Positions 9,848 through 28,787 of a DNA stretch of 64,000 nt are shown in pieces. The notes under the pieces are model-generated. The model saw nothing but the letters and a program-made list of their open reading frames with translations. It made no database searches and had not been told where the DNA came from. This stretch comes from an uncultured virus (IMG/VR IMGVR_UViG_2643221865_000004). Its lineage: Duplodnaviria > Heunggongvirae > Uroviricota > Caudoviricetes. The stretch is from the IMG/VR virus record IMGVR_UViG_2643221865_000004. One strand, 5' to 3'. Both the position numbers and the translations under genes were made by a program. Position 1 is the stretch's first letter, and every line of letters starts with the position of its first letter.

Positions 9848-10506
9848 TCTATGCGCGAGCCGGAGTGCCGGCTGTCCACTTTCGACCTCTGATACCGAAA
9901 TCACCCAGCGTCACCACCGCCGGGTTACAGGTTCTCCCCTTATGGCTGCTGGGAAGAACCCTTACTACTACTACTGATTACCCAGTTACCAAGTTAACAA
10001 ATACCCCTTAAGGGAAAAGCAATATATCCGCTGGCTCTCTCCAGCTATATATCTATGGCCCCTAATACTTATGCATGCTGTTCCGGTGGGTAATTCGGGT
10101 ATCAAGGCTGTTTTTGCCCTTCTGATCTGCCTTTATACAGGTACCACGGGGTTGGTTACAGCTGGTGATCTGGGTGATTCTGGTCGGTTACGGACCGGTT
10201 TGTGCCGTCGCCGAAGTTGACAGCACCCTCGTTCGGGTGATATTCGCGCGCGCACGCGCGGGCGCGCGCGTTCCTACTTAATACGTGCACCCTGCCCCCA
10301 AGTCGGGGGTGATTCCGCATTTCAGGTGTAATGCGAGCGATCCTCACCGCTCCACACCTACGCGCACAGGCGCGCGACGCGCGCGTGATCACTACCTCCA
10401 TGTGCGGACGCGCGCCAATTTGCGCAGCACCCTGCACTGCTCCGCCTCCGCCACATGTCCTACGCGGACGCGTAAATGACAGCCGGCACTCCGGCTCGCG
10501 CATAGA
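9848..10506. repeat. Exact 29-bp inverted repeat (9848-9876 and 10478-10506) forming divergent promoters
   Basis: GACAGCCGGCACTCCGGCTCGCGCATAGA at 10478-10506 is the exact reverse complement of 9848-9876; each copy ends 6 nt before an ATG. Confidence 0.9.
9900..10330. other. Putative replication origin (AT-rich, GTTAC repeats)
   Basis: Most conspicuously AT-rich stretch in the window; GTTAC at 9924, 9985, 10155, 10187 and GTTAAC at 9993; lies between the primase-helicase and ParA-like genes. Confidence 0.6.
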
Positions 10507-10512
10507 ACCCCT

Positions 10513-12720
10513 ATGGACAACTTCACCCCGCCGACACTCGGCATCATCGAGCTGCCCGAGCTCAGCGAGCTCCTCCGCCAGCTCGGCTACCGGATCGTAT
10601 CCGGACCCAACTTCCAGAACGCCGCAGCCGCAGTCAAGGCAGAGATCGACTCCGCCAACGCACGCGGAGACGCCAACGGCAGCCGCTTCCCCGTCGTCAT
10701 CGCCGACGGCCGCAAGCCCGGCATCAAGGCGTGGACGCAGAAGCTCTCAGCCACCTCCCCGGTACTGATCCTCCGCGACGGCGACCCCCGCTCCCACTAC
10801 ATCATCGCGGAGGGCACCCGCGAGCTGAACCTCCCCGCCACCGTCGGCGAGATCCTCGGCTCCATCAACTTCCCCGTCCCTCAGGACGAGAAGCTCACCT
10901 GGTTGGTCGGGGTCGACGGTTCCGTCCGCCCGTCCAACGCTGCTCCCTCCCCCGCACCCGCATTCCCCGCGGCCACGACAGCAGCGCCCCTCCCCGAAGC
11001 CGCGCCGCAATTCCCGGCCGCAGCACCTGCGTTCCCCGGAACGGCGCCGTCCGCCCCCGGCTTCCCCGGAACTCCGGCCGCCGCAGAACGCGCCCCCTGG
11101 GACAACCGACCCGTGGCCGACGAGGCGTTCCACCAGCCGGAGGTCGATCCGTCCATGTTCGACCGTCCCGCTCAGACCATCTTCCCCGACGCACCGCAGG
11201 CAGCACCTGTTCAGCCGGCATGGGCCGTAGCCGACCAGGCAGCAGCGCCAGCACCGGCATGGGGTGTCCCGACAGCTCCCGCCGCCCCCGCAGCGCCGGT
11301 CGCACCTGCCCAGCCGGCCGTCCAGCCCGACTGGTCTGCCAACTCACCGGCCGGATGGCCGGCAGCCACGGCATCCTTCCCCGAAGAGGTTCCTGCACCG
11401 CAGGCGCCGGCTCCATTCGAGCCGCTCGCCCACGGACGACGCTCCCAGGAGCCGGACCAGACCTTCGACGGTTGGGCACAGCCCGCAGAGACAGCGGCAT
11501 CCTTCCCCGAAGCACCCGCGGCTCCCGCCACCCCGGCATGGGCTGCGCAGTTCGAAGCACCGGCCGCCGCTCAGCCGGCCGCACCCGCATGGGCTGCGAC
11601 GCCTGAGGCTGCTCCTGCCCCCTGGGTTCCCGAGCCGGCAGCGCCCGCACCGACGTTCCAGGCTCCCGCACCGGTCGCCGTTCCGTCCTTCACGTCACCG
11701 ATCGAGCAGCAGGCACCCGCCTGGGCTGCAGCAGCCGAGCCGGACTGGGCGAGCACTCCCGTGCAGCCGGCCGCACCCGCAGCACCGGCCTTCCAGGTTC
11801 CGGTGCCAGCAGCCCCTATCTACACGAACCCGGTCGAGCCGGAGATCTTCGAAGCAGCGGTAGTGAACCACGCCGGCGGCCCGGTTTCACCGATCATCTT
11901 CGACTGGGCGTACAAGGGCGGCGTCAACAAGACCAGCCTCAGCCTGCAGTTCGCCCACCGCGCTTCCGAGTGTGGGATGAAGGTCGTCCTCGTCGACATG
12001 AACCGCGGCCAGGGCGGTGTTCGCACCATGCTTCGCATCAGCGACGACGCTCCGATTCCATCCGCGTTCGACGCAGCCCAGACCGGCGACCCGTCAGCCG
12101 CGGTCGTCCTCCCGAACGACATGCAGCGCCATCGCGCGAACACACTCGCCCCGGTGCAGTTCGGCGTGGTGCTCGCACCGCCCCGTGCGGTAGCCAGCGC
12201 AGACGCCACTCCGTACACCGCTTACAAGAAGATCATCGATCACGCCCGCCGCACCGCGGATCTCGTCATCGTCGACACCCAGAACGTCGAAGCAACGGAC
12301 AACTCCGGACTCATCGACAAGGTCATGGTTCCGATGATGATCGAGGACGCCTGGGGTGTCGCGATCACCGAGTTCGGCAAGGAGTCCGTCGACAACCTCC
12401 TCGCAGCACTCGAGATGTACCAGAAGCGGGGGCTGGCGCGCGACCGGCAGCTGCTGACCGTCACCCGCGTCCAAGGCTTCACCCCGGACGACGCAAACGG
12501 TGTCGAGCGCAAGTTCGGACGCTACGCCCGGTTCGCCGGCACCACCACCGTGTCCTCCTACCTCAAGGACCAGCTGGACCGCGGGCAGATCATCTCCGAC
12601 GACCCCGCCGTCAGGCCGCTGCTCGACAACGTCCTGTTCCAGGTGACAGGCAACTCCGTCTTCGACGAATCCGCGCAGAAACCCAAGAAGCGCGGCCTGT
12701 TCGGAGGTGGCAAGCGATGA
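10513..12720 (+). CDS. ParA/MinD-family ATPase with N-terminal domain and long Pro/Ala-rich linker
   Basis: Deviant Walker A YKGGVNKTS, KVVLVDMN, DLVIVDT; MinD-like C-terminal KKRGLFG. Confidence 0.8.
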   Translation: MDNFTPPTLGIIELPELSELLRQLGYRIVSGPNFQNAAAAVKAEIDSANARGDANGSRFPVVIADGRKPGIKAWTQKLSATSPVLILRDGDPRSHYIIAEGTRELNLPATVGEILGSINFPVPQDEKLTWLVGVDGSVRPSNAAPSPAPAFPAATTAAPLPEAAPQFPAAAPAFPGTAPSAPGFPGTPAAAERAPWDNRPVADEAFHQPEVDPSMFDRPAQTIFPDAPQAAPVQPAWAVADQAAAPAPAWGVPTAPAAPAAPVAPAQPAVQPDWSANSPAGWPAATASFPEEVPAPQAPAPFEPLAHGRRSQEPDQTFDGWAQPAETAASFPEAPAAPATPAWAAQFEAPAAAQPAAPAWAATPEAAPAPWVPEPAAPAPTFQAPAPVAVPSFTSPIEQQAPAWAAAAEPDWASTPVQPAAPAAPAFQVPVPAAPIYTNPVEPEIFEAAVVNHAGGPVSPIIFDWAYKGGVNKTSLSLQFAHRASECGMKVVLVDMNRGQGGVRTMLRISDDAPIPSAFDAAQTGDPSAAVVLPNDMQRHRANTLAPVQFGVVLAPPRAVASADATPYTAYKKIIDHARRTADLVIVDTQNVEATDNSGLIDKVMVPMMIEDAWGVAITEFGKESVDNLLAALEMYQKRGLARDRQLLTVTRVQGFTPDDANGVERKFGRYARFAGTTTVSSYLKDQLDRGQIISDDPAVRPLLDNVLFQVTGNSVFDESAQKPKKRGLFGGGKR

Positions 12721-13727
12721 GATCCCGTGGATTCCCGCAGCTGCGCACCCTCATCGAGGGCATCGACCGCATCCTCATCGGCAAGACCGCTGAGCAGACA
12801 GACCCCGGCGTCCGGGAAGGCGTGAACTTCATCGTCCGCCTCCCGACCTGGACGGAGCTTCCTCCGGCGATCAACGTCGGCATGAAGGCGAAGAAGAACG
12901 AAGACCTCGTCCTTCCTGCCCGTATCGAGTGGAACGTCCCGCCGCTGGTAATGGTCACCCCCGGCGAGTCCGTCGAGGTCGAGTGGCGCATCACCAACAT
13001 GGGCCACCGCAAGAGCGGCACCATCACGCTGACCGAGCTCGGTCAGTCGGAGTTGATCCCCGGACAGCTCGACGGTGCGGTGATCGGCACGTTCTCGTCC
13101 CGCGACCTGAACCGGAAGCTGACGAAGCTCGTCACCGACGGGCAGTCCGCGAAGTGGGAGGTGCTGAACTCCTTCGAGGAGTACACCCGCTCGAAGATCA
13201 CCGAGGCTTCCAGGATCCTGGCGCAGGAGTTCTCAGAGCTCTCTGGCCGCTCAATCCCGGGAGTCCTCGACGAGAACGCCATCGACGCACTCCTCGCGGA
13301 GATGCTCTTCGGTGAGCGTGAATCGAAGAAGGACAGCTCGATTGTCTCCCGGATGGTTGACAAGGCTCTCGACCCGAACGCGTTCAACGACTACGACCCG
13401 GCTCGGTTCTTCACTCTCAACTTGAAAGCCCGAGCGCTCGGAGAAGTCAAGCGCGTCATCGGCGACCCGCACATCGGACCAAAGATCCGACGGGTTCACC
13501 GCATGAGTGGGGCCACGACAATCGAAGCGGTTGTCGCGGCGTACAACGAACAGTACCCGAAGGAGCACCTCGGCGCAAAACGGGCGATGGCTGCCCTGAC
13601 GGCCGGCCACCAGCTCGAGGTGATGGCCGGAGCACTCGCTCCCGACGACGAACTCCGCGACTGGGCCCAGTCCGAACTCGACGCGGTCGAGCCGGATGAG
13701 ACTCCCGAGACGGAGTCCGACGCATGA
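12717..13727 (+). CDS. Hypothetical protein, possibly a second divergent sigma-like or DNA-binding factor
   Basis: ATGA overlap with the ParA-like gene; helical C-terminal half (FFTLNLKARALGEVKRVIGDPHIGPKIRR). Function is speculative. Confidence 0.6.
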   Translation: MRSRGFPQLRTLIEGIDRILIGKTAEQTDPGVREGVNFIVRLPTWTELPPAINVGMKAKKNEDLVLPARIEWNVPPLVMVTPGESVEVEWRITNMGHRKSGTITLTELGQSELIPGQLDGAVIGTFSSRDLNRKLTKLVTDGQSAKWEVLNSFEEYTRSKITEASRILAQEFSELSGRSIPGVLDENAIDALLAEMLFGERESKKDSSIVSRMVDKALDPNAFNDYDPARFFTLNLKARALGEVKRVIGDPHIGPKIRRVHRMSGATTIEAVVAAYNEQYPKEHLGAKRAMAALTAGHQLEVMAGALAPDDELRDWAQSELDAVEPDETPETESDA

Positions 13728-14167
13728 GCGCGCCGGTGACTTCGCTCGCTGACGCGAAGACCGCACGGGTCGCTGCGGACCACGAACGAGCCGAGTGGCT
13801 CGTGTCTCTGGCGGACGGGTTCAACTCCCAGGCGGACCTCTTCCAGCGTGCCGGAACACTCGGCGGGCGACCCCTGCTGCGCATCCCGTTGCGTCAGGTT
13901 CTGCTCGCCACGAAGGGCATCGGAGACCAGAAGGCGGCGCACATCTTGGCGCGCGTCCAGACGGTCCTCGGGGTCAAGATCCCGGTCCGAAAGATGACGG
14001 TCGGCTGGCTCCTGGACTCCCGCGCCGGCGGCCGCCGAGCGATGGCGTGGCAGGACGTGACGACCTCTCTGCGGTCAGAACCGTGGCCCGGCTTCCCCTA
14101 TTCTTCTCGGCTCGTAAACGCCGTTGGGGGACATCAGTCCTCCGCAAACCGAGGAGAACACCTGTGA
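13724..14167 (+). CDS. mIHF-like (H2TH) nucleoid-associated protein
   Basis: IPLRQVLLATKGIGDQKAAHIL resembles the actinobacterial IHF/S13-like H2TH motif; ATGA-coupled. Confidence 0.65.
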   Translation: MSAPVTSLADAKTARVAADHERAEWLVSLADGFNSQADLFQRAGTLGGRPLLRIPLRQVLLATKGIGDQKAAHILARVQTVLGVKIPVRKMTVGWLLDSRAGGRRAMAWQDVTTSLRSEPWPGFPYSSRLVNAVGGHQSSANRGEHL

Positions 14168-15045
14168 GCATCGACGTCGCGACCTATTTCGCTGAGCGCA
14201 TCGAATCCCTGCGCGGTCTGGATGGGGGACACCGCCAGATCGGCTCGTCTCCGCTGGAACGCGGGGTCCACCGTGTGCTGCGTGATTTCAACGGTCACAT
14301 TTGGGGGTGGTCGAACCAGGCGTGCCGCGCGCACGGTGACCGCGACCTGCTGTTCGCCGAGGATGTGCGCAGCACCATCTCGCTGAAAGTGTGGCAGGCG
14401 ATCATGAAGGAGCTGACTGACCCGGCCGATCCGGCGATTGTCAACTATTACTCCTACTTTCAGAAAATCGCTCAGCGCACTGCGTTCGCGTTTTTCCACA
14501 CGTCGGAGCGGTCCGGATTCAGCAACGTGAACGGTGCGTTGCGCCGCACGTCGAAGATCAACAAGACCCGCGGCGAGATGACCATTTCGATGGGCCGTGA
14601 GCCGTCGGACGAAGAGGTCGTTGCGGAGGTGAACCGGGTCATGCACGAGACCCGGAAGAACCCGGAGAAGCAGGGTGCCCTGGTCAGCCTTCAGGATGTG
14701 CGTGTTGCCACGTCTTCATCGCTTGACGGCATGGTCGCCGAGTACGGCGATTCGATCTGGGAGCCCGTCGTTCACGACGAGGCCGAGCTGTCCTCTGTCG
14801 AAGCTCCGTCGTTGATCGAGAGGATCATCGATGAGTGTTTCGACGAGTCTTCGGAGCTGGGCGAGATCGCTCAGCTGTGGATCGGGAACGCTGTTTCCGA
14901 GCCGCCGGTGATCCGTACGGAGGTGGAGATTCGTGATCTCGTGTCCCCGAGGGTGGCGTCTGTTGCTGCGCTGATGATCGAGGTGAAGGAAGTGGCACAG
15001 CGTGTGTGCATCGACGACTTCGGCATCGACTCTCCCTTTCTCTGA
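14164..15045 (+). CDS. Divergent sigma-70-family factor
   Basis: GTG 14164 with GAGGAG RBS and GTGA overlap. Region 2-like NYYSYFQKIAQRTAFAFF, region 3 signature MGREPSDEEVVAE, region 3.2-like SSLD. Confidence 0.65.
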   Translation: MSIDVATYFAERIESLRGLDGGHRQIGSSPLERGVHRVLRDFNGHIWGWSNQACRAHGDRDLLFAEDVRSTISLKVWQAIMKELTDPADPAIVNYYSYFQKIAQRTAFAFFHTSERSGFSNVNGALRRTSKINKTRGEMTISMGREPSDEEVVAEVNRVMHETRKNPEKQGALVSLQDVRVATSSSLDGMVAEYGDSIWEPVVHDEAELSSVEAPSLIERIIDECFDESSELGEIAQLWIGNAVSEPPVIRTEVEIRDLVSPRVASVAALMIEVKEVAQRVCIDDFGIDSPFL

Positions 15046-15049
15046 TCAT

Positions 15050-15296
15050 TCCGGTCATCACTGACCGGGTCCCGTCACCCACTAACTGGGGGCGGGATTC
15101 ATCATGCCCGACAGAAGCCGGGAAAACAAATCGCCCCCGAAAGGGGTGAAGCTCGTGGTGTAACCGCTTCGTTGCGGGCACGAGTACATAACTTACACCC
15201 CCACAGCGAGGGTAAGTCAAATCAGCCCCGGAAAGGGGGCGCGCAGGGGTGTAACGACGAGGCGGGTCAAGCCGGCCTGCGCATTACACCCCCCCG
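15050..15296 (+). ncRNA. Structured element with two tandem hairpin-plus-pseudoknot units
   Basis: Units 15127-15202 and 15218-15295 share CAAATC, a GCCCC..GAAA..GGGG hairpin and GGTGTAA/TTACACC pairing, with different but complementary P1 stems. G-U pairs favour a + strand RNA. Confidence 0.6.
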
Positions 15297-15303
15297 ATCG
15301 GGA

Positions 15304-15717
15304 TTACGCCTCGGCGGGGTAGAAGACCGCGACGCCCTTGGAGTTCTCCAGCACCTCCACGTAGGGCTCGACGTCGCCGAACTCCTCATTCAGGGCCGAG
15401 TGCGGGTTGCCCTGCTCCTTCGCGTACTCCTCCTCGGAGGCGTACGTCTCGAACAGCCACTCCCCGAACTCCGCGTCGTCCGCCTGCGGGTTCCACGACT
15501 GGAACAGCTGCTTCGCCTCCAGGTACGTGTCCGAGGAGCTGATCGCAGCGCGCTGCTCGTTGTGGCCGAAGCCCTCATAGCCGTCGGTGACAGCAAGGGA
15601 GAACTCAGGAGCGTCGGAGCGCAGGTGCTCAGGGATCGGCTCGAACTGCTTCGTGAACGGGTTGCGGTGCTGGTCGCGGAGGTGGGCCTTGGCTGGGTCG
15701 ATGGTGAGGTTGCTCAT
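15304..15717 (-). CDS. Hypothetical protein
   Basis: Acidic ORF with a coding-like codon pattern; CACACCTA-N6-ATG upstream. Confidence 0.75.
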   Translation of the reverse strand: MSNLTIDPAKAHLRDQHRNPFTKQFEPIPEHLRSDAPEFSLAVTDGYEGFGHNEQRAAISSSDTYLEAKQLFQSWNPQADDAEFGEWLFETYASEEEYAKEQGNPHSALNEEFGDVEPYVEVLENSKGVAVFYPAEA

Positions 15718-17830: not shown

Positions 17831-18496
17831 TCAGTACCAGCCGGAGGACTCAGAGTGAGCCCATGCACCGCAAGGGTCTCCGTAGCGCTCCTGGATGTAG
17901 CCGAGCCCCCAGATGATCTGGGTGGCCGGGTTAGTCTCCCAGTCGGCGCCGGCGGAGGCCATCTTGCTGCCAGGCAGCGACTGCGGGATCCCGTACGCGC
18001 CTGACGAGCTGTTGCTCGCGGCGGCGTTCCAACCGGACTCCCGGTCCCAGAGGGCGACAAGGCATCCGAACTGGTCCTCGCCCCAGCCGCGGGGAGCCAT
18101 CATGTCGTGGGCGATCGCCTGCGCACTGCCCGGGTCGGGGGCGAACACCGGCGGGGCCGCGTAGATGGCGACCGGATCCGGCTCGGGCGATGGTACCGGC
18201 TCGGGCTTGGGCGCAGGTGGCGGCGGTGGCGGTGGGACGTAGGCGACGACGGTGTAGTTGTCGCGCACCACCTCGGTCGGCGCGGCGCCGGTCGGGACGG
18301 TGATCGTCTGCAGTGGTCCGTGGTCGACGGTCGCGACGGTGGTCGGCTGCGAGGGCGCAGCGAACGCCATGGGGGCGAGGGCGATGGTGGCGCCGAATAG
18401 GGCGACTGCTGCCAGCGCGCCAGCTTTTCTGGGGTTCACTGCGGGTGCCGGGCGGCGGCTTGTGGTGACGGCGCGGTGCCGTGAGGTTGAGGGCAT
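17831..18496 (-). CDS. Secreted lytic transglycosylase (SLT/lysozyme-like)
   Basis: CLVALWDRESGWN...GAYGIPQSLPGSKMASAG.DW.TNP.TQI.WGL.YI..RY; signal peptide and Pro linker. Start uncertain. Confidence 0.85.
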   Translation of the reverse strand: MPSTSRHRAVTTSRRPAPAVNPRKAGALAAVALFGATIALAPMAFAAPSQPTTVATVDHGPLQTITVPTGAAPTEVVRDNYTVVAYVPPPPPPPAPKPEPVPSPEPDPVAIYAAPPVFAPDPGSAQAIAHDMMAPRGWGEDQFGCLVALWDRESGWNAAASNSSSGAYGIPQSLPGSKMASAGADWETNPATQIIWGLGYIQERYGDPCGAWAHSESSGWY

Positions 18497-18565
18497 GAAG
18501 TCTGCTTCCGGTCGCGGGGACGCCTCGGCGTGTTCTGTCTGTTGTGTGGGCATGTGGCGGAAGGC

Positions 18566-18591
18566 GGGTGCCCCGCCTAAGCGGGGCACCC
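18566..18591. terminator. GC-rich hairpin downstream of nrdF
   Basis: GGGTGCCCCGC-CTAA-GCGGGGCACCC perfect stem. Confidence 0.55.
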
Positions 18592-18694: not shown

Positions 18695-20148
<1,454 letters not shown>

Positions 20149-20238
20149 GGAGGCTTTCTGTGGCGGGAGGTCGGGGTCTGAAAGACATGTGGCAAAGCTC
20201 GCCTGGTGTCTGCTGACCTGGACCTTGTAGGTGTGTGG

Positions 20239-20727
20239 CTACGCGGCGTCCACGACGGAGCGGCGTGTCCCCGCGAGGACGGCGGCCAGGTCGATGTACC
20301 AGGCGGTCGGATCGTCGGCGAACCCGGGGACCAGGCGGATGACGAGGTCGGAGTCGACGGCGGCGAAGTCGTCGACGGTCTGGCGGGTGACGTAGGCGGA
20401 GAGCAGTCCGAGCCCGACATCGGCGACGGTGGATGCTCCGCCGTCCCAGTCGCTCAGGTACGCGGCGGCGTTCTCCGCCGCAACCTCGGCAACCTTTCCG
20501 GAGTGGGTCTCGAGCGCCCAGATCTGCGGGTAGATGTCACGGATGCTGACGTGATTACCGGCGGCCTCCGCGACGGTGTTGGTGAGGGCGAGTGCCGTTG
20601 CGCGGTCAGTGTCGATGTAGTCGAGGCCTGTCGCTGCGGCAGCCAGAAGGTCGCGGATGTACTCGGGAGCGTCGGTGGCGCCGGCTTCAGCGAGACGTCC
20701 GGCGATGGTGCGAGGGAATGCAGTCAT
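20239..20727 (-). CDS. Hypothetical protein
   Basis: Preceded by the GCAGCCGGC..CGCGCATAGA motif, as in the replication genes. Confidence 0.75.
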   Translation of the reverse strand: MTAFPRTIAGRLAEAGATDAPEYIRDLLAAAATGLDYIDTDRATALALTNTVAEAAGNHVSIRDIYPQIWALETHSGKVAEVAAENAAAYLSDWDGGASTVADVGLGLLSAYVTRQTVDDFAAVDSDLVIRLVPGFADDPTAWYIDLAAVLAGTRRSVVDAA

Positions 20728-20826
20728 ACAGTTCTATGCGCGACGGGAGTAGCCGGCTGCTTCCAGCAAGGGTGGAGCCTCGGGCCGCGCCGACACCGAG
20801 TAGCGCGGCCCGAGGGGTTCAGGGGG

Positions 20827-21408
20827 TCAGGGCTTCGGTGACATCTGTCCTGAAGCGACCAGTTGGGCCCAGGCTGCGAGGGTGATGCCGCAGGTGATGA
20901 CACCGCTGGTGACGAGGCTGGTGAGTGTGCCGTCGTTCACCCACAGCTGCTTGGCGCCGGACTTCTCCTCTTGGAACAGCATGTTCTCCTGAGGCTTCGT
21001 GTCGAACAGGTACACCACGACCGCGGTGTCCATCAGGCCGGGCTCCGGGTAGAAGCCGCCGAGCCGGACCGGGTCGGGAAGCACTTCGCAGCCGACCTCC
21101 TCTTCCAACTCGCGCTGAGCTTCCTCGACGGTCAGGGCGGTCGCCCAGCCGCGGGGGAACTCCAGAGTGAACGAGTTCGACGCGGGACGGTGCTGCTTCA
21201 CCAGCCCGTAGTAGGAGACGCCTTTCGCTGTGGCTCGAGGGATCGCGACGACGCCGAGACCAGTGCCGGGACGGACGATCGTGACGGTGCCGGGACGCCC
21301 GTCAGGTCGGATGACCGGGGTCTCGTCGACACGCATCTTGTCGTTCTGAAAACGGGTCTCGCTCGGTCCGGTGGGGGTGAAGCCAGGCTCTGTGACGCCG
21401 AAGCTCAT
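20827..21408 (-). CDS. Nudix hydrolase (ADP-ribose pyrophosphatase-like)
   Basis: LVKQHRP..LEFPRG...AQRELEEEVG, FYPEPG. Confidence 0.85.
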   Translation of the reverse strand: MSFGVTEPGFTPTGPSETRFQNDKMRVDETPVIRPDGRPGTVTIVRPGTGLGVVAIPRATAKGVSYYGLVKQHRPASNSFTLEFPRGWATALTVEEAQRELEEEVGCEVLPDPVRLGGFYPEPGLMDTAVVVYLFDTKPQENMLFQEEKSGAKQLWVNDGTLTSLVTSGVITCGITLAAWAQLVASGQMSPKP

Positions 21409-21462
21409 GGTGTTCCCTCCTCACTGGTCCGGGATTGGTTCAGCTGTCAGACATGTGGCGAA

Positions 21463-22053
21463 TCAGAGCGCGCTGATGTTCCGGCCGGTGGCGACAAGCT
21501 GCGCCCAGGCGGCGATCGTGAACCCGCAGGTGATCTGCCCGCGAGAGATGAGCCCCTGCAGGGTTCCGCCGTTCACCCAGTGGTGGATGGCGCCGGAGGA
21601 CTCCTCGCGGTACGAGTCCTGGTCGAGGAAGACTGCGTCCTCGGTGGTCGTGCAGGCGGCAAGGTAGGTGGCGACGGTAGTGGTGAGCAGCCCGGTGTCG
21701 GGGTGGATCGTGCCGATCCGCAGCGGCTCACCGTTCACCTCGCAGCCGACCTCCTCGACGACCTCGCGGGCGGCGCTCACGCTGTCCAGATCCTTCGTAG
21801 CTCCACGCGGGAACTCCAGAGACTGACCTCCGATGGGCGGCCGGTGCTGGCTGACCAACGCGAAGTAGGGCAGGCCTCGGATGAAGGTGCGCGGGATGAC
21901 GACGACACCGTTGCCGGTCCCCGGAGTCACCGTGGTGAAGAAGCCATCCTCGCCGTCCGGACGGACGACAGGGGTCTCCTCCACACGGATGAACTGGTTC
22001 GCGAAACGTGGCTCAGCTTCACCTTTGGGGGTGAATCCGTAGTGACGTGTCAT
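21463..22053 (-). CDS. Nudix hydrolase, tandem paralog
   Basis: LVSQHRPP..LEFPRG...AAREVVEEVG, IHPDTG. Confidence 0.85.
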   Translation of the reverse strand: MTRHYGFTPKGEAEPRFANQFIRVEETPVVRPDGEDGFFTTVTPGTGNGVVVIPRTFIRGLPYFALVSQHRPPIGGQSLEFPRGATKDLDSVSAAREVVEEVGCEVNGEPLRIGTIHPDTGLLTTTVATYLAACTTTEDAVFLDQDSYREESSGAIHHWVNGGTLQGLISRGQITCGFTIAAWAQLVATGRNISAL

Positions 22054-22140
22054 GGGCTCGGTGCCTTTCGTTGTGGGCAGGCGGTGAAACCTGTCACACC
22101 TCAGGCATGTGGCGAATAACACTCGGTTCTCGCTGTTCCG

Positions 22141-22536
22141 TCAGTGCAGGTGGGCTGCCGCTGCAAGGAAGCCGAAACCTGCAGCCTCTCCCCTGTACTC
22201 GGCGATGAGCTCCGCAGCGACATGTGCGTTCGTCTGAACGTCCGCGATGCGACCTTCCCCGAGATTGCGCAGGAACCAGGCCGAGATTCGCTGCTTGGAG
22301 CTGGTCGCGTCGATGATGTTGCCCGGTGCGTTCCTCGCGATAATGGCCGCTGCCGCCTCGGTTTCCGCACGGGCGACCAGCTGGTGACGCTCATTGATGA
22401 CCATCTTCCCGACCGCCGTCCATCGCATGCCGGCTGAGGGAGCTAGCGCTTCAGCTTCCGCCTGCTCCGCCTCGAAGCGGGTGACAAGTTCACGAAGGCC
22501 ACCGTCGACCTGGGCGTGTGCTTCTGTGATGTCCAC
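22141..22536 (-). CDS. Hypothetical protein
   Basis: GTG 10 nt downstream of CGCCACATG. Confidence 0.7.
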   Translation of the reverse strand: MDITEAHAQVDGGLRELVTRFEAEQAEAEALAPSAGMRWTAVGKMVINERHQLVARAETEAAAAIIARNAPGNIIDATSSKQRISAWFLRNLGEGRIADVQTNAHVAAELIAEYRGEAAGFGFLAAAAHLH

Positions 22537-22568
22537 ACCCCAAAGGCATGTGGCGGAGAGTCAGTGGT

Positions 22569-23843
22569 TCACGGGTTCGGATCGTCGTGAACGACGACCC
22601 GCGACAACTCCACTGTGCCGTCAGGGAGTCGCCAGAAATGCAGCCGGCGGGCAGCGGCGACGTTCGTCTCCACGCTCACCCGGAAGCACACGGCACCGTC
22701 CTCACGGGACCATGGTGCGTTCGCTCCGCCTTCCCCTCGGCGAAGCGGGTGCAGCTTCCGGTGAGCTTGCACCCGACCGATCAGGACATCTACGACGCAG
22801 CGAAGCGCTTTCGATCTCAGCTGCGGGTCCAGCTCGTCGACACTGTCGGCGAACATCGGGCCGATCCGGTACTCCGGCAGTGGGGCTTCCGTCTTCTCCG
22901 ATGACGGCACCCGGTCCACCCAGGCGCCCAGAATCGCATGCCGCACAGCCTCTCCAGCATCTTGGAATGCGTCCGGCCGCCACGTCGTGACGGCCTCGCC
23001 GGCGTCCTGCCGGTCGATGCGTCGTGCTCGCGTCGCGGTTGTCCTCAGCCTCTCGCTGAGCTCTGAGACTTTCGTCTGGAGTTGGGCGGCGAGGATCAGG
23101 GCTTCTCTGGCTTCTTCGGACCGTTGGGATGAGCGGTTCAGTTCGTTGGTGAGCCCGATGGTTTTCAGTCGCCAGCTGTCCCGGTCGGTGGTCATCACCC
23201 TGAGGTCCCGTTCCGCTTTGGACAGCTTGGAGCGGAGCGTGGCGAAGATCTCGTCGGTGCTCTCGACGACCGGTTTTGCAGGTTCCGGGTCGGGTGCCGG
23301 GGTTGGTGCGGGTGCCGGCGGCGCTTTCGGTTTGGCGGTGGCTATCCGCTGCATCGCGGTCATGGCGTCGGCCGGGGTTTTCAGCGGTGCGTGGAACAGG
23401 AGCGAGTTGTGTCTGGGGAGCCTGGCGGCGGCGTCCTGCAGGTCGAGGATGTCGTCACGTCGGGCTGCGGCGAGGACTGACCAGACCAGCTGTTGGTATT
23501 TCTGGCCGGCTTCGTCGGCGTCATGGGCGAGGAACAGTTTCGCTTCGGAGCGGTTGAACTTCCACGCGAGTCCTGCCGGGTAGACCCGCACAGCTCCGCC
23601 CCACACCTTGCCGTTGTCGGGCATGTGGTCGGTGAACAGGTAGTTCGGTTGGCCGGCCGGGAGGACGCATACATCAACGTCTGTGCCGCATCCGTCGACG
23701 ATGGCTCCGGGGTCGAAGAACGGCCCGTGGGCGCGCAGGGATTGCGTGATCACCACGGTGACCCGATCTCGTCCTGGATGCTGAAGATGTTCCGCTAGTT
23801 CGCGGACATCGTCCGCCGTCTTGACGAACCCCATGCCCCACAT
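22569..23843 (-). CDS. Coiled-coil protein with C-terminal RelE/ParE-like domain (paralog 1)
   Basis: C-terminal IGPMFADSV...HPLRRGEGG...CFRVSVE...ARRLHFW...VELSRVVVHDD; clear paralog of 31439-32818. Confidence 0.7.
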   Translation of the reverse strand: MWGMGFVKTADDVRELAEHLQHPGRDRVTVVITQSLRAHGPFFDPGAIVDGCGTDVDVCVLPAGQPNYLFTDHMPDNGKVWGGAVRVYPAGLAWKFNRSEAKLFLAHDADEAGQKYQQLVWSVLAAARRDDILDLQDAAARLPRHNSLLFHAPLKTPADAMTAMQRIATAKPKAPPAPAPTPAPDPEPAKPVVESTDEIFATLRSKLSKAERDLRVMTTDRDSWRLKTIGLTNELNRSSQRSEEAREALILAAQLQTKVSELSERLRTTATRARRIDRQDAGEAVTTWRPDAFQDAGEAVRHAILGAWVDRVPSSEKTEAPLPEYRIGPMFADSVDELDPQLRSKALRCVVDVLIGRVQAHRKLHPLRRGEGGANAPWSREDGAVCFRVSVETNVAAARRLHFWRLPDGTVELSRVVVHDDPNP

Positions 23844-23903
23844 TCTTGCACTGGGGTGTCTGCCGGTGGGGGTGGATCTGTGCGGCGCGTCTCAGGTTGC
23901 CGT

Positions 23904-24152
23904 TCAGTCAGCCCAGACGCGTTCCGGGTGTGCCGGGTAGATGATCTTCCCGTTGAACCAGTTGCCGATCTTCTCCCCGTCGGGGGTGGTGCCGAGCCAG
24001 TGCTTGTACCGCCGGTCCTGGTCGAGATTCCGGCCGGTGAACACACCCCATGTCTGGTTGCAGGTGGGGCACTGCCACAGTGCGCCGACGGGGTTGCTGT
24101 CCAGTGGCGGGACGGCGCATGGGTGCGGTGTCGGTGTTTCAGGTGTGCTCAT
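23904..24152 (-). CDS. Small putative Zn-binding protein
   Basis: HPC...WQCPTC; GGAG RBS; motif at 24185. Confidence 0.65.
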   Translation of the reverse strand: MSTPETPTPHPCAVPPLDSNPVGALWQCPTCNQTWGVFTGRNLDQDRRYKHWLGTTPDGEKIGNWFNGKIIYPAHPERVWAD

Positions 24153-24200
24153 CGGGCGTCTCCAGGTCGGCTTCTGGGGTGAGGCATGTGGCGGACGCAG

Positions 24201-24234
24201 AACCGCCCCGGCGGTTGAGGCTGCCGGGGCGGTT
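24201..24234. terminator. Hairpin after the Ig-repeat surface protein gene
   Basis: AACCGCCCCGGCGG-loop-CTGCCGGGGCGGTT. Confidence 0.55.
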
Positions 24235-24248
24235 CGTGTGGAGGGGTT

Positions 24249-26555
24249 CTACTCTGCCGGGGTCTCCGGGTTGGTGGGCTCCTCCGGGTTGGTCGGGCCA
24301 TCGCCCGGGTTGTCGCCGGGTTCGGTGGGCTCGTCTCCGGGCTCGTCGCCGGGGTTTTCGCCCGGGTTGTCGCCGGGCTCCTCGCCGGGCTCTTCGACGG
24401 GGTCAGCCGCGATGATCTGTCCGGTGGTGGCGAAGTACCGGTTGACTTCGAGGTGGCTGTTCACGAGGGCGGTGATGACGTGGCCGATGTCGTCCTCGTC
24501 GAGGACGTAGTTCGGACCGTCCTGCCAGTCGATGAGCTCACCGTCGCGGAACCACCGGTAGGTCTGGCCTTCGGGGTTCGCCTCCGGGTCCTCCCAGATG
24601 CTGAGGACCTCGCCTGCCTGCTCGGTTCCGTGGAAGCTGGACGCCTCGAGGCTGCCGTCGAACTGGGTGGTGCCTTCGGTGTCGGAGTACCAGGAGCGCT
24701 GCTGGTATCCGTCCTTGTTCGCTGTGACGACCACAAACACCGGGTATCCGACGTCGTCGATCGTCTGCGTGTAGGTAGCGGCGTCGGCGCCGGGGATCAG
24801 CGTCTCGTAGCTGCGGTACCACTGGTAGGTCAGGGTTGCCCCTTCGACTGCCCAGTCGATTCCGATGACTGCGGTGAGCTCAGCGCCCATGATCCGCTCG
24901 CCGGCCGGTGTGGTCTGCTCGTCGCCGACGAAGTACAGCAGCTCGTCGCCGGGGTCGCCTTCGCCTTCACCCTCGCCCTCGCCTTCGCCTTCACCTTCGC
25001 CGGGCTCAGCGGCCACGGTCGGGTCGCCGCCTTCGGACGCCCAGGTCTGGGTTTCGTACCCGTCGCGGACTGCTGTCACGGTGGCGGTGATGACGTGGTC
25101 GATGTCGGCTTCGGTCTGGAAGTAGCTGCTGTCGTTGTAGGGCGTCTCGTCTTCGGTGAGGATCGGCTCGCCGTCTCGGAACCAGGCGACGTTCAGTTCG
25201 TCCGGTGACGGCTGGATCGCTTCGGGCAGTGCGACGTACAGGTCCTCGCCGACGGCACGGACACCGTTGACGTTGGGGGTCTCACCGCCGGTGAAGATAC
25301 CGGCGAGGGTGTCGACCGATCCGCCTGACACCCAGGACTTCGTGACGTATCCGGCCTTGGCGGCTGTGACGGTGACCTTGATCACGTGGCCACGGTCGGC
25401 GGCTTCGAGGGTGTAGCGGGACGTGGTGGCTTCAGCGACCGGCAGGCCGTCTCGTGTCCACTGGTAGCTGATCGTCGGGGTTCCGGCGATGGGGCTGACC
25501 GATGCCGTGAGGAGCTCACCGACGCGGTGCTCGCCGGTGATCCCGATCTCGGGGGTGGCGAACACGGACAGGCCCGTGGTCTTCGCGGTCGACGTCAGAG
25601 CGAACACCGCGGTTGCGTGCCCGGTCCTCGCGACGGTGACCTTGGCGGTGGTGACGGTCCCGATGTCGGTTTCGGTCTCCGTGTACGTGGCCTTGGTGGC
25701 GCCGGCGATGGCCTTCCCGTCTCGGTACCACTGGTAGGCGACGCTGGTGGCTGCCGGGGTGAACACTCCGGGGGTGATGGTGAGGGTGGAGCCGATGATC
25801 CGGTTTCCGGCCCAGGTGGGCTTGCCTGTGACGGCCGCTCCTGCTGCTGCCTTCGACTTGTTGGTGGTCGACCATGCACGGGAGACGTAGTTCGCCTTGG
25901 CGGCGGTGACCTTGACGTTCACGACAGCGTTGTAGTCGGCGGCGGAGAGGACGTAGGTGGTCTTGGTGGCTCCGGGGATGGCTACGCCGTTCCGGGTCCA
26001 CTGGTACGTGAACGCGGGAGTGGGGGCGAGCTTGGCGGGTGCCTTGGCTGTCAGGGTCTTGCCGACCTGGAGGGTGCCGGTGAGGCTGGGGACGGTGGTG
26101 CCGGCGATCACGCCGTAGGTCTTCACCTTGGGGGACGTCCACGACTTGGAGGCTTTGCCCTTCTTCGCAATGACGCGCACCTGGAGCTGGTGTCCGATGT
26201 CGGCGGTGGTCTGCTTGTAGGTGGTCTTCGTCGCCTTCGAGATCGCCTTGCCGTCCCGGTACCACTGGTACGTGGAGACGTAGCCGGCCGGGGTCCACTT
26301 GCTGGGCTTGGCGGTGAGCGTGGAGCCGACGGTGTGGCTGCCGGAGACAGTGGGGGTGAGGGCGGCTGCGGCAACGAGGCGCACTTCTGTGTGCTGGTCG
26401 CTGGTCTCGGAGTGGATCACGAGGCTGGCATGGGACGGCTGCGGTGTCGCGGCGAATGCTGGTGTGACTGTGCATGCAAGGACGGCTGCGACGGCGGTCG
26501 TTGCGACCCCCACCTTCCAGTTCCTGCTGCGTGGCTGTGTGCTAGATGGGTGCAT
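24249..26555 (-). CDS. Secreted surface protein with about 7 Ig-like repeats
   Basis: Signal peptide; repeated VG.TLTA...YQW.RDG..I.GAT..TY units; (GE)n and EPGD/NPG low-complexity tails. ATG 26555 is 10 nt after CGCCACATG. Confidence 0.85.
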   Translation of the reverse strand: MHPSSTQPRSRNWKVGVATTAVAAVLACTVTPAFAATPQPSHASLVIHSETSDQHTEVRLVAAAALTPTVSGSHTVGSTLTAKPSKWTPAGYVSTYQWYRDGKAISKATKTTYKQTTADIGHQLQVRVIAKKGKASKSWTSPKVKTYGVIAGTTVPSLTGTLQVGKTLTAKAPAKLAPTPAFTYQWTRNGVAIPGATKTTYVLSAADYNAVVNVKVTAAKANYVSRAWSTTNKSKAAAGAAVTGKPTWAGNRIIGSTLTITPGVFTPAATSVAYQWYRDGKAIAGATKATYTETETDIGTVTTAKVTVARTGHATAVFALTSTAKTTGLSVFATPEIGITGEHRVGELLTASVSPIAGTPTISYQWTRDGLPVAEATTSRYTLEAADRGHVIKVTVTAAKAGYVTKSWVSGGSVDTLAGIFTGGETPNVNGVRAVGEDLYVALPEAIQPSPDELNVAWFRDGEPILTEDETPYNDSSYFQTEADIDHVITATVTAVRDGYETQTWASEGGDPTVAAEPGEGEGEGEGEGEGEGDPGDELLYFVGDEQTTPAGERIMGAELTAVIGIDWAVEGATLTYQWYRSYETLIPGADAATYTQTIDDVGYPVFVVVTANKDGYQQRSWYSDTEGTTQFDGSLEASSFHGTEQAGEVLSIWEDPEANPEGQTYRWFRDGELIDWQDGPNYVLDEDDIGHVITALVNSHLEVNRYFATTGQIIAADPVEEPGEEPGDNPGENPGDEPGDEPTEPGDNPGDGPTNPEEPTNPETPAE

Positions 26556-26654
26556 ATCGGACGGACATGTGGCGAAAACCCTTTTGTCCCTTGTGGGGAC
26601 GGAAACGCCCCGGTCAGCCGAAGCCAACCGGGGCGATCCTTGTCACGCCCTAGG

Positions 26655-28787
26655 TCACAGGGCGCAGGAGACGCATCCGTCGATTTCTGTCCCTTCGAGG
26701 GCCATCTGACGGATCCGGACGTAGTAGATCGTCTTGATCCCGGACTGCCAGGCGCGGATGTACGCCTTGTTGAGGTCGCGGGTGGTGGCGGTGTCGGGGA
26801 AGAACAGGGTCAGCGAGAGGCCCTGGTCGACGTGCTGTGTCGCGGCGGCGTACGTGTCGATGATCTTCTCGTAGCCGATCTCGTACGAGTCCTGGTAGTA
26901 GTCCAGGTTCTCGTTCGTCATGAACGGCGCCGGGAAGTACACGCGGCCGAGCTTGCCTTCCTTGCGGATCTCGATCTTCGCGGCGATCGGGTGGATCGAC
27001 GCGGTCGAGTTGTTGATGTAGGAGATCGAGCCGGTCGGCGGGACCGCCTGCAGGTAGGCGTTGTAGAGGCCGGTCTTCTTGACCTTCTTCGCCAGCGCCA
27101 CCCAGTCGTCCTGCGTGGGGATGTCGATGCCGGCGTCCTTGAAGAGCTTGACGACCTTCTTCGTGGCCGGCTTCCACTCCTGCTCGGTGTACTTGGTGAA
27201 GAACTCACCGGATGCGTACTTCGAGTCCTCGAAGCCGAAGAACGTCTCGCCCTTCTCCTTCGCGATCTTGTTCGACGCGGAGAGCGCGTGGAACAGGACC
27301 GTGTAGAAGTACATGTTGGTGAAGTCGATGCCTTCCTCGGAGCCGTAGTAGACGTGCTCGCGGGCGAGGTAGCCGTGGAGGTTCATCTGGCCGAGGCCGA
27401 TCGCGTGGGACTTGTTGTTGCCGTTGACGATCGAGGGGACCGAGTTGATCTCCGACAGGTCGCTGACTGCGGAGAGGCCACGGATGGCGACCTCCACCGT
27501 CTTGGCGAGGTTGCCGCCGTCCATCGCGAGGGCGATGTTCATGGAGCCGAGGTTGCAGCTGATGTCGCGGCCGACCTCCGAGTAGGAGAGGTCCTCGTTG
27601 TAGCTGGACGGGGTGTTGACCTGGAGGATCTCCGAGCAGAGGTTCGACATGTTGATGCGGCCCTTGATCGGGTTCGCAGCGTTCACGGTGTCCTCGAACA
27701 CGATGTACGGGTAGCCGGACTCGAACTGCAGCTCTGCGATGGTCTGGAAGAACTCGCGGGCGTTGATCTTCGATTTCTTGATGCGGCCGTCGTTGACCAT
27801 GTCGTAGTAGTTCTCGGTGACCGGCACGTCGGCGAACGGCTTGCCGTACACCTTCTCGACGTCGTAGGGCGAGAAAAGGTACATGTCCTCGTTCTTCTTC
27901 GCGAGCTCGAACGTGATGTCGGGGACGACGACGCCGAGGGACAGCGTCTTGATGCGGATCTTCTCGTCAGCGTTCTCTCGCTTCGTGTCGAGGAACCGCA
28001 TGATGTCCGGGTGGTGAGCCGACAGGTACACGGCGCCGGCACCCTGACGTGCGCCGAGCTGGTTCGCGTAGGAGAACGAGTCCTCCAGCAGCTTCATGAT
28101 GGGGATGATGCCGGACGACTGGTTCTCGATCTGCTTGATCGGAGCGCCGGACTCACGGACGTTGGAGAGGAGCAGGGCGACGCCGCCGCCGCGCTTGGAG
28201 AGCTGCAGGGCGCTGTTGATGCCGCGGCTGATGGACTCCATGTTGTCCTCGATGCGGAGCAGGAAGCAGGAGACGAGCTCGCCGCGCTGCGCCTTGCCGG
28301 CGTTCAGGAACGTCGGGGTGGCGGGCTGGAAGCGGCCGGAGAGGATCTCCTCCATGAGGTACTCCGCCTGCTTCTTGTCACCCTGGGCGAGGAAGAGGGC
28401 GGTCATGACGACACGGTCCTCGAAACGCTCCAGGTAGCGCTTGCCGTCGAACGTCTTCAGCGTGTAGCTGGTGTAGTACTTGAACGCGCCGAGGAACGAC
28501 TCGAAACGAGCCTTCTTGTCGTACGCCTTCTTGGTGAGCTCCTTCACGAACGGGACACCGTAGGTGTCGAACGTGCCGGGCTCGTAGTACTGCTTCTCCA
28601 GCAGGTATTCGATGCGCTCCTCGAGAGAGTGGAAGAACACCGTGTTCTGGTTCACGTGCTGCAGGAAGTACTCCCGCGCAGCCTCGCGGTCCTTGTCGAA
28701 CTGGATCTTTCCATCGTTGTCGTAGAGGTTGAGCATCGCGTTGAGCGAGTGGTAGTCGAGCTGTGTGCGATCGGGTGCAGCGATCAC
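26655..28787 (-). CDS. nrdE: Class Ib ribonucleotide reductase alpha subunit
   Basis: [44 protein letters not shown]-terminal GCVSCAL; GTGA overlap with nrdI. Confidence 0.97.

What the first reader, a model, noticed from the sequence alone, without database searches (positions are those of the whole stretch)
15050..15296. Tandem covarying pseudoknot RNA directly downstream of the sigma-like gene
Seen: two ~77-nt units with one architecture: CAAATC, a GCCCC-(GAAA loop)-GGGG hairpin, then stem P1 whose loop starts GGTGTAAC and contains a small hairpin, then TTACACCCCC. P1 is GCTCGTG/CACGAGT (15151-15157/15179-15185) in unit 1 and GCGCAGG/CCTGCGC (15241-15247/15276-15282) in unit 2, so the sequence differs while pairing is kept. 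Loop GGTGTAA pairs with downstream TTACACC (15193, 15284), giving an H-type pseudoknot. Upstream hairpins (15051-15068, 15070-15097) and G-U pairs indicate a + strand RNA. I cannot match it to a known family. Candidates: ribozyme, nuclease-blocking 3' structure, sigma-regulating sRNA, or an ssDNA signal.
Basis: partly seen in the sequence, partly recalled or inferred. Interest (0 to 1): 0.8.

Follow-up and report, generated by a model that had tools for sequence, protein, structure and literature searches.

The report
Duplicated hairpin module between convergent genes
Two look-alike 76-base hairpin-forming modules sit between two genes that face each other in an actinobacterial genomic island; they are real, but they look more like paired transcription stop signals for the opposite strand than a new pseudoknotted RNA.

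Summary
The repeat is real. Two 76-nt units (15127-15202, 15218-15293) share CAAATC, a CCCC/GGGG hairpin, GGTGTAAC and TTACACCCCC at identical offsets: 41 of 76 positions identical, reached by 0 of 20000 shuffles. It is the only such cluster in the 4.54-Mb genome, and Rfam has no match.

- **P1 covariation:** the stem's 3' strand sits 6 nt apart in the two units. Stems of 7 bp or more arise in 37% and 17% of shuffles.
- **Pseudoknot:** one connecting loop is 0 nt; the other is 7 nt in unit 1 but 1 nt in unit 2. P1 and P2 therefore look mutually exclusive, and the units prefer different folds.
- **Link to the sigma-like gene:** none of the five homologous loci I could read carries the motif.
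- **Strand:** only the minus strand has hairpin plus U-tail.

Best guess (0.4): a hairpin cluster with tandem intrinsic terminators at the 3' end of the minus-strand operon. The conserved words and exactly kept spacing remain unexplained. No homologs or RNA data exist. Interest is low to moderate.

The parts
14164..15045 (+). Sigma-like gene (293 aa, GTG start after GGAG), last gene of a + strand operon (ParA/CpaE-like ATPase 10513-12720, 12717-13727, 13724-14167)
   Evidence: GC3 frame plot, start context. Weak Sigma70_r3 hit E=0.0034, below cut-off, on the longer ORF. AF2 model pLDDT 67.5. The listed 50 Foldseek PDB rows are almost all sigma-factor chains, but the best E is 4.4e-3.
15050..15098 (+). 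Two hairpins directly after the sigma-like stop codon: Ha 15051-15068 (7 bp, -11.9 kcal/mol) and Hb 15069-15098 (12 bp with two G-U pairs, -19.0). Both have U-poor tails. They are candidate 3'-end hairpins of the + operon.
   Evidence: (I18)
15127..15202 (.). Unit 1: CAAATC 15127-15132; H0-1 hairpin 15134-15146; P1 15151-15157/15179-15185; G-arm GGTGTAA 15157-15163; inner hairpin 15164-15177; C-arm TTACACCCC 15193-15201
15208..15217 (.). Degenerate third G-arm GAGGGTAAGT in the 15-nt spacer. It can pair with ACTTAC.CC of the unit-1 C-arm: hairpin -7.1 kcal/mol on +, -13.6 on -.
15218..15293 (.). Unit 2: CAAATC 15218-15223; H0-2 hairpin 15225-15240; P1 15241-15247/15276-15282; G-arm GGGGTGTAA 15246-15254; C-arm TTACACCCC 15284-15292. 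The arms extend to an imperfect 21-nt-arm hairpin, 15246-15266/15272-15292.
   Evidence: (I1, I23)
15120..15146 (-). Best intrinsic-terminator candidate, read on the - strand: CCCCUUUCGGGGG then CGAUUUGUUUU (H0-1 of unit 1 plus the reverse complement of CAAATC and the A-run)
   Evidence: Terminator scan. Hairpin -8.4 kcal/mol with 7 U in the 12-nt tail. The same short hairpin-plus-tail occurs in low-GC viral contigs L304/L311.
15293..15302 (.). Palindrome CCCGATCGGG abutting the stop codon of the - strand gene
15304..15717 (-). 137-aa acidic orphan protein (P0002), last gene of the convergent - strand gene string (80 aa 15738-15980, 445 aa 16040-17377, 142 aa, SLT-type transglycosylase 17831-18589)
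   Evidence: GC3 0.93. No family. No relative among 5.8 billion clustered proteins. No match in plasmids or phages.

Best explanation
The 258-bp spacer between two convergent gene strings holds the 3'-end structures of both transcripts. The two hairpins at 15050-15098 belong to the + strand sigma-like operon. The duplicated 76-nt module belongs to the - strand operon that ends with the 137-aa gene.

Read on the - strand, each unit is a large hairpin (GGGGUGUAA...UUACACCCC) followed by a small GC hairpin with a UUUC(C) loop and a U-rich tail (GAUUUGACUU, then GAUUUGUUUU). That is two tandem intrinsic terminators in a hairpin cluster: a leaky proximal one and a better distal one. Their job would be to stop the - strand polymerase before it runs antisense into the sigma-like operon.

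- **Shown:** the repeat, the hairpin potential, the U-tails on the - strand only, and the lack of any tie to the sigma-like gene.
- **Inferred:** that the region is transcribed, that termination happens there, and which strand matters.
For: - **Position:** the region lies between convergent genes. It is the most structured of the 16 intergenic regions of 90-700 nt that the run scored before it timed out (z -5.1/-6.8, mononucleotide shuffles).
- **Strand:** hairpin plus U-rich tail is found only on the - strand. H0-1 is -8.4 kcal/mol with tail UUUGUUUUCCCG (7 U of 12). H0-2 is -10.4 with AUUUGACUUACC (5 U of 12). No + strand hairpin has more than 4 U in its tail. This gives the conserved word CAAATC a role as GAUUUG, part of the U-tract.
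- **Close match:** CCCCTTTCGGGGGCGATTTGTTT also occurs in two viral contigs, L304 and L311, with a further T-run after it.
- **No tie to the + operon:** the motif is absent downstream of the sigma-like gene in 0 of 5 homologous loci read. The pattern GGTGTAAN{15,45}TTACACC has 0 matches in G426, G495 and G314.
- **Literature (passages read):** hairpin clusters, rather than single hairpins, are proposed as intrinsic terminators, with GC content and U-trail occurrence anti-correlated; tandem hairpins after M. smegmatis gyrA are cited as terminating better than single ones (PMC8355165). Streptomyces clavuligerus has U-rich terminators with an upstream A-tract, U-less 'I-shaped' ones, and bidirectional 3' ends (PMC8269248).
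Against: - The H0 stems are only 4-5 bp and weak. The terminator scan found 1 site in the region against 0.6 expected in shuffles, so the hit is not significant on its own.
- Termination does not explain why the two large-hairpin arms keep the same sequence in both units. It also does not explain why every spacing is kept to the base (30 nt from the start of CAAATC to the start of GGTGTAAC, 29 nt between the arms) while the 28 nt after GGTGTAAC are only 5 of 28 identical.
- The two units prefer different nested folds.
- In a 160-nt sliding fold of 141 kb of the contig (+ strand only), no window that starts inside the repeat ranks in the top 40; the two nearest entries start at 14751 and 14791 and end in the first nucleotides of the spacer or at the two upstream hairpins.
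- There is no expression data at all.
Confidence: 0.4

Rival explanations
1. A double-stranded DNA array of protein-binding sites (centromere-like, operator-like or iteron-like). Four GGTGTAA words in alternating orientation (15157 +, 15193 -, 15248 +, 15284 -), a degenerate fifth, and two CAAATC words would be read by one or two DNA-binding proteins. Spacing matters and the sequence between the words does not.
For: - The words are 100% conserved and every spacing is kept to the base, while the intervening 28 nt are 5 of 28 identical.
- The two units do not share a preferred RNA fold.
- The array sits directly after an operon that begins with a ParA/CpaE-like ATPase and ends with an HTH-bearing sigma-like protein. 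This is the position of sopC or parS in F and P1 (recalled, not tested).
- Clusters of GGTGTAAC/GTTACACC words in both orientations occur in many viral contigs, for example L179, L184, L186, L195, L257.
Against: - Homologous operons in five other loci have no repeat array downstream.
- No ParB-type protein was recognised in the operon.
- Site-centre distances of 36, 55 and 36 bp are not whole helical turns.
- The viral word clusters are only 2.4 times commoner than those of a same-composition control word (106 against 44 loci), and their words are packed far more densely.
- No further copies lie in the operon's promoter region or elsewhere in the window (138 matches at up to 2 mismatches against 130 expected).
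Confidence: 0.2
2. A specific structured non-coding RNA on either strand. Options are a pair of paralogous small RNAs (5' hairpin plus terminator, - strand), or a 3'-UTR element in which P1 and P2 are alternative helices or partly formed pseudoknots, as the first reader proposed for the + strand.
For: - Folding is better than shuffles on both strands.
- Both units allow the order a-b-a'-b' (P1 and P2), and the four arms are mutually complementary. The unit-1 C-arm pairs perfectly with the unit-2 G-arm over 9 bp (I9), so 1:2 / 2:3 / 3:4 alternative pairing is possible. That would explain why all arms keep one sequence.
- On the - strand each unit has the layout 'structured domain, then terminator hairpin plus U-tail'.
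Against: - No covariation: P1 is at chance level and shifted, and H0 and P2 are invariant.
- The connecting loops are 0 nt plus 7 nt in unit 1 and 0 nt plus 1 nt in unit 2. This makes simultaneous full P1 and P2 implausible in unit 2 and different between the units (geometric reasoning, not modelled).
- No Rfam hit, best E 0.04 to a snoRNA model.
- The covariance model finds no credible relative in 150 family genomes, 3 related plasmids or 2 Agromyces genomes.
- No promoter-like site in the region.
Confidence: 0.25
3. A single-stranded-DNA signal (transfer origin, single-strand replication origin or priming site) or a recombination site of the mobile island.
For: The locus lies in an accessory region with a second nrdE copy, Tad-like secretion ATPases, sortases and lytic transglycosylases, and a tyrosine integrase about 146 kb upstream on the same contig. 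Inverted 7-9-bp arms 29 bp apart recall the outer arms of large-serine-recombinase attachment sites (recalled, not tested).
Against: No TrwC relaxase, no TraG-type coupling protein and no large serine recombinase were found in the whole genome (other relaxase families were not searched). There is a single copy only, no adjacent replication or recombinase gene was recognised, and no related element carries it.
Confidence: 0.07

Closest known systems
Hairpin-cluster / tandem intrinsic terminators of GC-rich bacteria (PMC8355165; Streptomyces 3'-end classes in PMC8269248; WebGeSTer classes, PMC3013805, seen only in the search listing)
   Same: Several stable GC-rich hairpins packed into an inter-operon region after stop codons. 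The distal small hairpin has a U-tract with an A-tract on the other side. The genes are convergent.
   Different: Here two modules are sequence paralogs, with four conserved words and base-exact spacing. Known tandem terminators need not have this. The terminator-like stems are short (4-5 bp). No 3' ends have been mapped.
H-type RNA pseudoknots, including pseudoknot riboswitch aptamers followed by a terminator, and tandem riboswitches (PMC9481103, seen only in the search listing)
   Same: The strand order a-b-a'-b' is possible in both units. On the - strand a terminator-like hairpin follows each unit. The arrangement is tandem.
   Different: The connecting loops are too short (0 and 1 nt in unit 2). 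There is no covariation and no Rfam match. The element is not in a 5' leader, since no gene follows on either strand.
Repeat centromeres after partition operons (F sopC, P1 parS; recalled from memory)
   Same: Direct repeat units, each holding an inverted repeat, placed just after an operon that starts with a ParA-like ATPase.
   Different: There are only two units and the arms are 29 bp apart. No ParB was recognised. The array is absent from all homologous operons examined.
Viral contig L023 (IMG/VR, 70% GC): tandem GGTGTAAC...ATTACACCCC hairpins
   Same: Same arm words, two in tandem plus a GGGTGTGAC variant, in a spacer next to the end of a gene (TerL). With the G-run arm placed 5', a U-G wobble closes the stem, as in unit 2 on the - strand.
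   Different: The loops are 14 and 25 nt, not 29. There is no CAAATC + H0 module and the neighbouring genes are unrelated. It was found by searching for these very words, so the likeness is partly by construction.

Membership tests
Any Rfam family | Covariance-model score at or above the family's gathering threshold | tested here: not met
   Whole window: only 2 tRNAs. Region 14900-15450 at E up to 10: best is snoZ256 at 21.6 bits against a gathering score of 50, on the - strand.
   From the sequence: P1 and P2 share or abut a base (0-nt loop). The other loop is 7 nt in unit 1 and 1 nt in unit 2. Nested folds favour P1 in unit 1 (-27.8 against -24.6) and P2 in unit 2 (-40.8 against -30.3). No 3D modelling was done.
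Structured RNA family supported by covariation | Compensatory changes at aligned helix positions beyond chance | tested here: not met
   Only two sequences exist. H0 and P2 are invariant. The P1 strands are not at aligned positions, and stems of that length arise in 1867 of 5000 and 863 of 5000 shuffles. No homologs were found to extend the test.
Intrinsic (Rho-independent) terminator | GC-rich hairpin directly followed by a U-rich tract, downstream of a gene on the same strand | tested here: met
   - strand: 15146-15134 CCCCTTTCGGGGG + CGATTTGTTT. Tails hold 7 of 12 U (unit 1) and 5 of 12 U (unit 2). The site is downstream of the 137-aa gene. The stems are short and the scan hit is not above shuffle expectation.
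Intrinsic (Rho-independent) terminator | Transcript 3' ends map to the U-tract | not testable with these tools
   No RNA run holds this DNA.
Partition centromere (sopC/parS-like) | Repeat array next to a parA-parB operon, with a centromere-binding partner, kept in related operons | tested here: not met
   There is a ParA-like domain in the 735-aa ATPase, all hits below curated cut-offs. No ParB family hit. 0 of 5 homologous loci carry a downstream array.
Large-serine-recombinase attachment site / conjugative transfer origin | A cognate recombinase or relaxase encoded in the genome | tested here: not met
   PF07508, PF08751 and PF12696 each have 0 matches in the own genome. Other relaxase families were not searched.

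The most novel reading that the evidence does not exclude
Read on the - strand, each unit is a structured domain with two mutually exclusive helices (P2 against P1), followed by its own terminator hairpin and U-tail. The two in tandem would form a conditional, factor- or ligand-responsive double terminator in a 3' UTR. It would gate antisense read-through into the convergent sigma-like regulatory operon of the island. This would be a previously undescribed riboregulator class known so far from a single genome.
Probability: 0.08. Interest if true: 0.65.

Novelty: new member of a known kind. Interest (0 to 1): 0.27.

Why it matters
If the ordinary reading holds, this is one more hairpin-cluster terminator between convergent operons in a high-GC actinobacterium. 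It would be useful only as an annotation. It would also be a caution that compensated-looking stems in GC-rich spacers arise by chance in a fifth to a third of shuffles.

The part worth keeping in mind is the unexplained residue. Four words are conserved perfectly, and all spacings are kept to the base, across two units whose remaining sequence is randomised. That pattern means something reads either the words or the geometry, whether a protein on DNA or a set of alternative RNA pairings. It sits next to an unusual sigma-like regulatory operon shared by Micrococcales megaplasmid-like elements. With only one genome carrying it, its general importance is small unless relatives turn up.

Tried and rejected
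- **Nucleotide similarity:** no match for the spacer or its surroundings in phages, plasmids or 60 relatives.
- **Relatives of the sigma-like protein:** 5 in the large protein collection at 45-54% identity. DNA was reachable for only one of these, A. humi. A sixth relative, in G495, came from a genome search. Viral contigs held no relative.
- **The 137-aa neighbour:** no relatives. Four weak viral hits (E 7e-4) were not pursued. The 445-aa neighbour has no plasmid match.
- **Pattern scans:**
  - Viral GGTGTAACN{15,40}TTACACCCC gave 88 loci, nearly all single chance hairpins or coding.
  - The CAAATC..GGTGTAAC..TTACACC pattern gave 0 viral and 43 metagenome loci, none with the unit's layout.
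  - L118/L122 (48-bp palindrome arrays) and L136 (GC-rich, a eukaryote-looking gene upstream, my impression only) were judged unrelated.
- **Covariance model R1:** the hits in W01 (inside a CDS), G101 (E 0.015 among 150 genomes), G495 and W03 were judged chance.
- **Sequencing runs:** no RNA holder is listed. Laying the two soil-metagenome runs and the probable source run gave no independent cover of 15092-15259.
- **Other searches:** a literature search for the arm words returned only primer-type hits. Earlier findings of this scan gave nothing.
- **Ideas rejected on the sequence alone:** a promoter reading of TTACAC-N19-CAAATC (present at one junction only), an integron attC site, a MITE with terminal inverted repeats (single copy), and a 14-codon ORF at 15104-15148.
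- **Failed runs:** the first intergenic z-score run timed out with no output. The repeat timed out after 16 regions.

Full report
**What is there**

The window is part of a 701-kb contig of a 4.54-Mb, roughly 65% GC genome. The only protein-level relatives of the local genes are in Agromyces genomes and in Curtobacterium and Arthrobacter-group megaplasmids, so the organism is a member of the Micrococcales.

The finding lies in a 258-bp spacer (15046-15303) between convergent genes.

- **On the + strand**, GC3 frame analysis shows a four-gene string:
  - a 735-aa ParA/CpaE-like ATPase (10513-12720);
  - a 336-aa protein (12717-13727);
  - a 147-aa protein (13724-14167);
  - a 293-aa protein starting at GTG 14164.
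- **The last protein is plausibly sigma-like.** It has a sub-threshold Sigma70_r3 hit. An AlphaFold model (pLDDT 67.5) gives listed Foldseek PDB matches that are almost all sigma-factor chains, though none is better than E 4.4e-3.
- **On the - strand**, the spacer is met by a 137-aa acidic orphan (15304-15717). Behind it lie 80-, 445- and 142-aa orphans and a lytic transglycosylase.
- **The wider window looks like an accessory island**. It holds nrdE/F/I (a second nrdE copy lies on contig 7), dUTPase, Tad-like ATPases, sortases and CHAP/SLT enzymes.

**Checking the observation**

- The two units (15127-15202 and 15218-15293, period 91) align without gaps. 41 of 76 positions are identical, all within CAAATC, CCCC(..)GGG, GGTGTAAC and TTACACCCCC. 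The 28 nt after GGTGTAAC share 5 positions.
- None of 20000 shuffles reaches this identity.
- TTACACCCC occurs three times in the window against 0.08 expected.
- The genome has 55 GGTGTAA sites, and this locus is the only place with three or more within 300 bp.
- A covariance model built from the units finds only them in the genome.

So the repeat is real and unique.

- **Covariation.** The P1 stems differ in sequence and both pair, but they are not at equivalent positions. The 3' strand is at unit offset 52-58 in unit 1 and 58-64 in unit 2. A contiguous stem of 7 bp or more between the same two segments appears in 1867 of 5000 and 863 of 5000 shuffles of the variable parts. H0 and P2 are identical in both units and so say nothing about pairing.
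- **Pseudoknot.** P1 and P2 abut or share a base, giving a 0-nt loop. The other connecting loop is 7 nt in unit 1 but a single A in unit 2. By ordinary helix geometry (my reasoning, not modelled), full P1 and P2 cannot coexist in unit 2. In any case the two units cannot share one three-dimensional layout. Nested folding prefers P1 in unit 1 (-27.8 against -24.6 kcal/mol) and the long P2 hairpin in unit 2 (-40.8 against -30.3).
- **Strand.** Both strands fold well: z -4.5 for + and -6.7 for -. The unit region has nearly equal energy on each, -81.6 against -86.3. G-U pairs occur on both.
- **Link to the sigma-like gene.** The protein has only five relatives at 45-54% identity in the large protein collection. 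I could read the DNA downstream of the gene in five loci: A. humi, Agromyces-group genome G495 and three Curtobacterium plasmids. None has the motif or any repeat array. The arm pattern has no match in the three chromosomal genomes G426, G495 and G314. Model R1 gave only chance-level hits in the plasmids and in 150 family genomes.
- **Rfam.** Nothing matches.

**What it most likely is**

On the - strand, each small H0 hairpin is followed by a U-rich tail. Unit 1 reads CCCCUUUCGGGGG-CGAUUUGUUUU, which the terminator scan flags. Unit 2 reads CCCCCUUUCCGGGG-CUGAUUUGACUU. The tails hold 7 and 5 U in 12, while no + strand hairpin has more than 4.

This gives the conserved CAAATC a plain role as part of a U-tract. 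It also makes the A-run before unit 1 the mirror of that tract. CCCCTTTCGGGGGCGATTTGTTT, with a further T-run after it, occurs in two viral contigs.

The two hairpins next to the sigma-like stop codon (-11.9 and -19.0 kcal/mol, U-poor tails) would serve the + operon. Passages I read describe:

- hairpin clusters proposed as terminators in bacteria, with GC content and U-trail occurrence anti-correlated, and tandem hairpins after M. smegmatis gyrA cited as terminating better than single ones (PMC8355165);
- U-rich, U-less and bidirectional 3' ends in Streptomyces (PMC8269248).

I therefore read the repeat as two tandem terminator modules at the 3' end of the - strand operon, with confidence 0.4.

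**What this does not explain**

Termination needs neither identical arm sequences in both units nor spacing kept to the base while everything between is randomised. Two readings could account for that.

- **A DNA-binding array (0.2).** This fits the fixed geometry and the position after a ParA-like operon. It lacks a recognisable binding protein, helical phasing, conservation in related operons, and extra sites elsewhere.
- **An RNA with alternative pairings (0.25, taken together with other ncRNA readings).** This fits the fact that all four arms, plus a degenerate fifth at 15208-15217, are mutually complementary. That includes a perfect 9-bp match between the unit-1 C-arm and the unit-2 G-arm (I9).

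Clusters of the same words are found in many viral contigs. One is a 70%-GC contig with two tandem GGTGTAAC...ATTACACCCC hairpins beside TerL. However, a same-composition control word gives 44 loci against 106, so this is weak support for any special meaning of the word.

A single-stranded-DNA or recombination-site role (0.07) lacks a partner enzyme. No TrwC relaxase, TraG-type coupling protein or large serine recombinase was found in the genome.

**Limits**

- No homolog of the element was found, so covariation cannot be tested.
- No RNA data exist for this organism.
- The contigs of two soil metagenomes did not cover the units.
- The sliding-fold comparison used the + strand only. No window that starts inside the repeat ranks in its top 40; the nearest entries start at 14751 and 14791.
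- The intergenic comparison scored 16 regions before timing out.

**Verdict**

This is a genuine, unique duplicated module. The title claims (covarying, pseudoknot, + strand, sigma-associated) are not supported. It is most likely an ordinary 3'-end hairpin cluster with an unexplained layer of word and spacing conservation.

Noticed in passing
window 9905-10512: The 608-bp, 57% GC divergent spacer upstream of the ATPase/sigma-like operon holds the word GGGTGATTC or near copies four times (9896-9906 inverted, 10088, 10172, 10307). It also holds an alternating CG tract with dyad symmetry at 10244-10270, a TTGACA-16-GATATT promoter-like site at 10217, and an 11-nt stretch GGTGTAATGCG (10325-10335) identical to the - strand of unit 2. 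These are possible operator sites.
   Followed up: partly
window 10513-15045; L002-L004, L095, L144: The gene string 'large ParA/CpaE-like ATPase, (WhiB), ~330 aa, ~130 aa, ~290-aa sigma-like protein' recurs in Curtobacterium megaplasmids of 545-607 kb. The sigma-like gene alone recurs in Arthrobacter-group megaplasmids (375-441 kb) and two Agromyces genomes. It is a conserved regulatory module of these large elements whose function is unknown.
   Followed up: partly
window 18695-29314 and genome contig C7:510337-511893: The window carries a full nrdF / nrdE / nrdI set. A second nrdE is on contig 7, so one set is accessory. dUTPase, NT5C-type nucleotidase, NUDIX and HNH genes lie nearby.
   Followed up: partly
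L118 1-360 and L122 2380-2640 (metagenome contigs): Arrays of about 48-bp tandem units, each with a perfect palindrome whose half-sites change together from unit to unit (GTTACACCCGGGGTGTAAC, GTTATACCCGGGGTATAAC, GACACCAGTGGTGTC, GAGACCAGTGGTCTC, GATACCAGTGGTATC), upstream of a gene. It looks like an iteron or centromere array with covarying half-sites.
   Followed up: no
L023 1440-1620 (IMG/VR contig, 70% GC): Three consecutive hairpins with arms GGTGTAAC/ATTACACCCC (twice) and ATGTCACACCC/GGGTGTGACAT in the spacer after a large terminase gene. These are the only four GGTGTRAC sites in the 27-kb contig.
   Followed up: partly
genome contig C4 around 150332: A perfect 14-bp palindrome TTACACCGGTGTAA, followed by ...GTCGCAAATCG, lies about 55 nt upstream of a WhiB-like gene's start codon (identified by eye from the translation). 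It is possibly an operator and shares its words with the finding, perhaps by chance.
   Followed up: no
L136 1440-1590 (metagenome contig, 66% GC): Four direct GGGGGTGTAA words and two TTACACCC words are enclosed by an 11-bp outer stem, downstream of a gene for a Cys-rich esterase-like protein with a PT-repeat linker that looks eukaryotic (my impression). It folds with z -5.0.
   Followed up: partly
window 15104-15148: A 14-codon ORF (ATG...TGA) begins 6-10 nt after a G-rich stretch and ends inside the H0 hairpin of unit 1. There is no evidence that it is translated.
   Followed up: no
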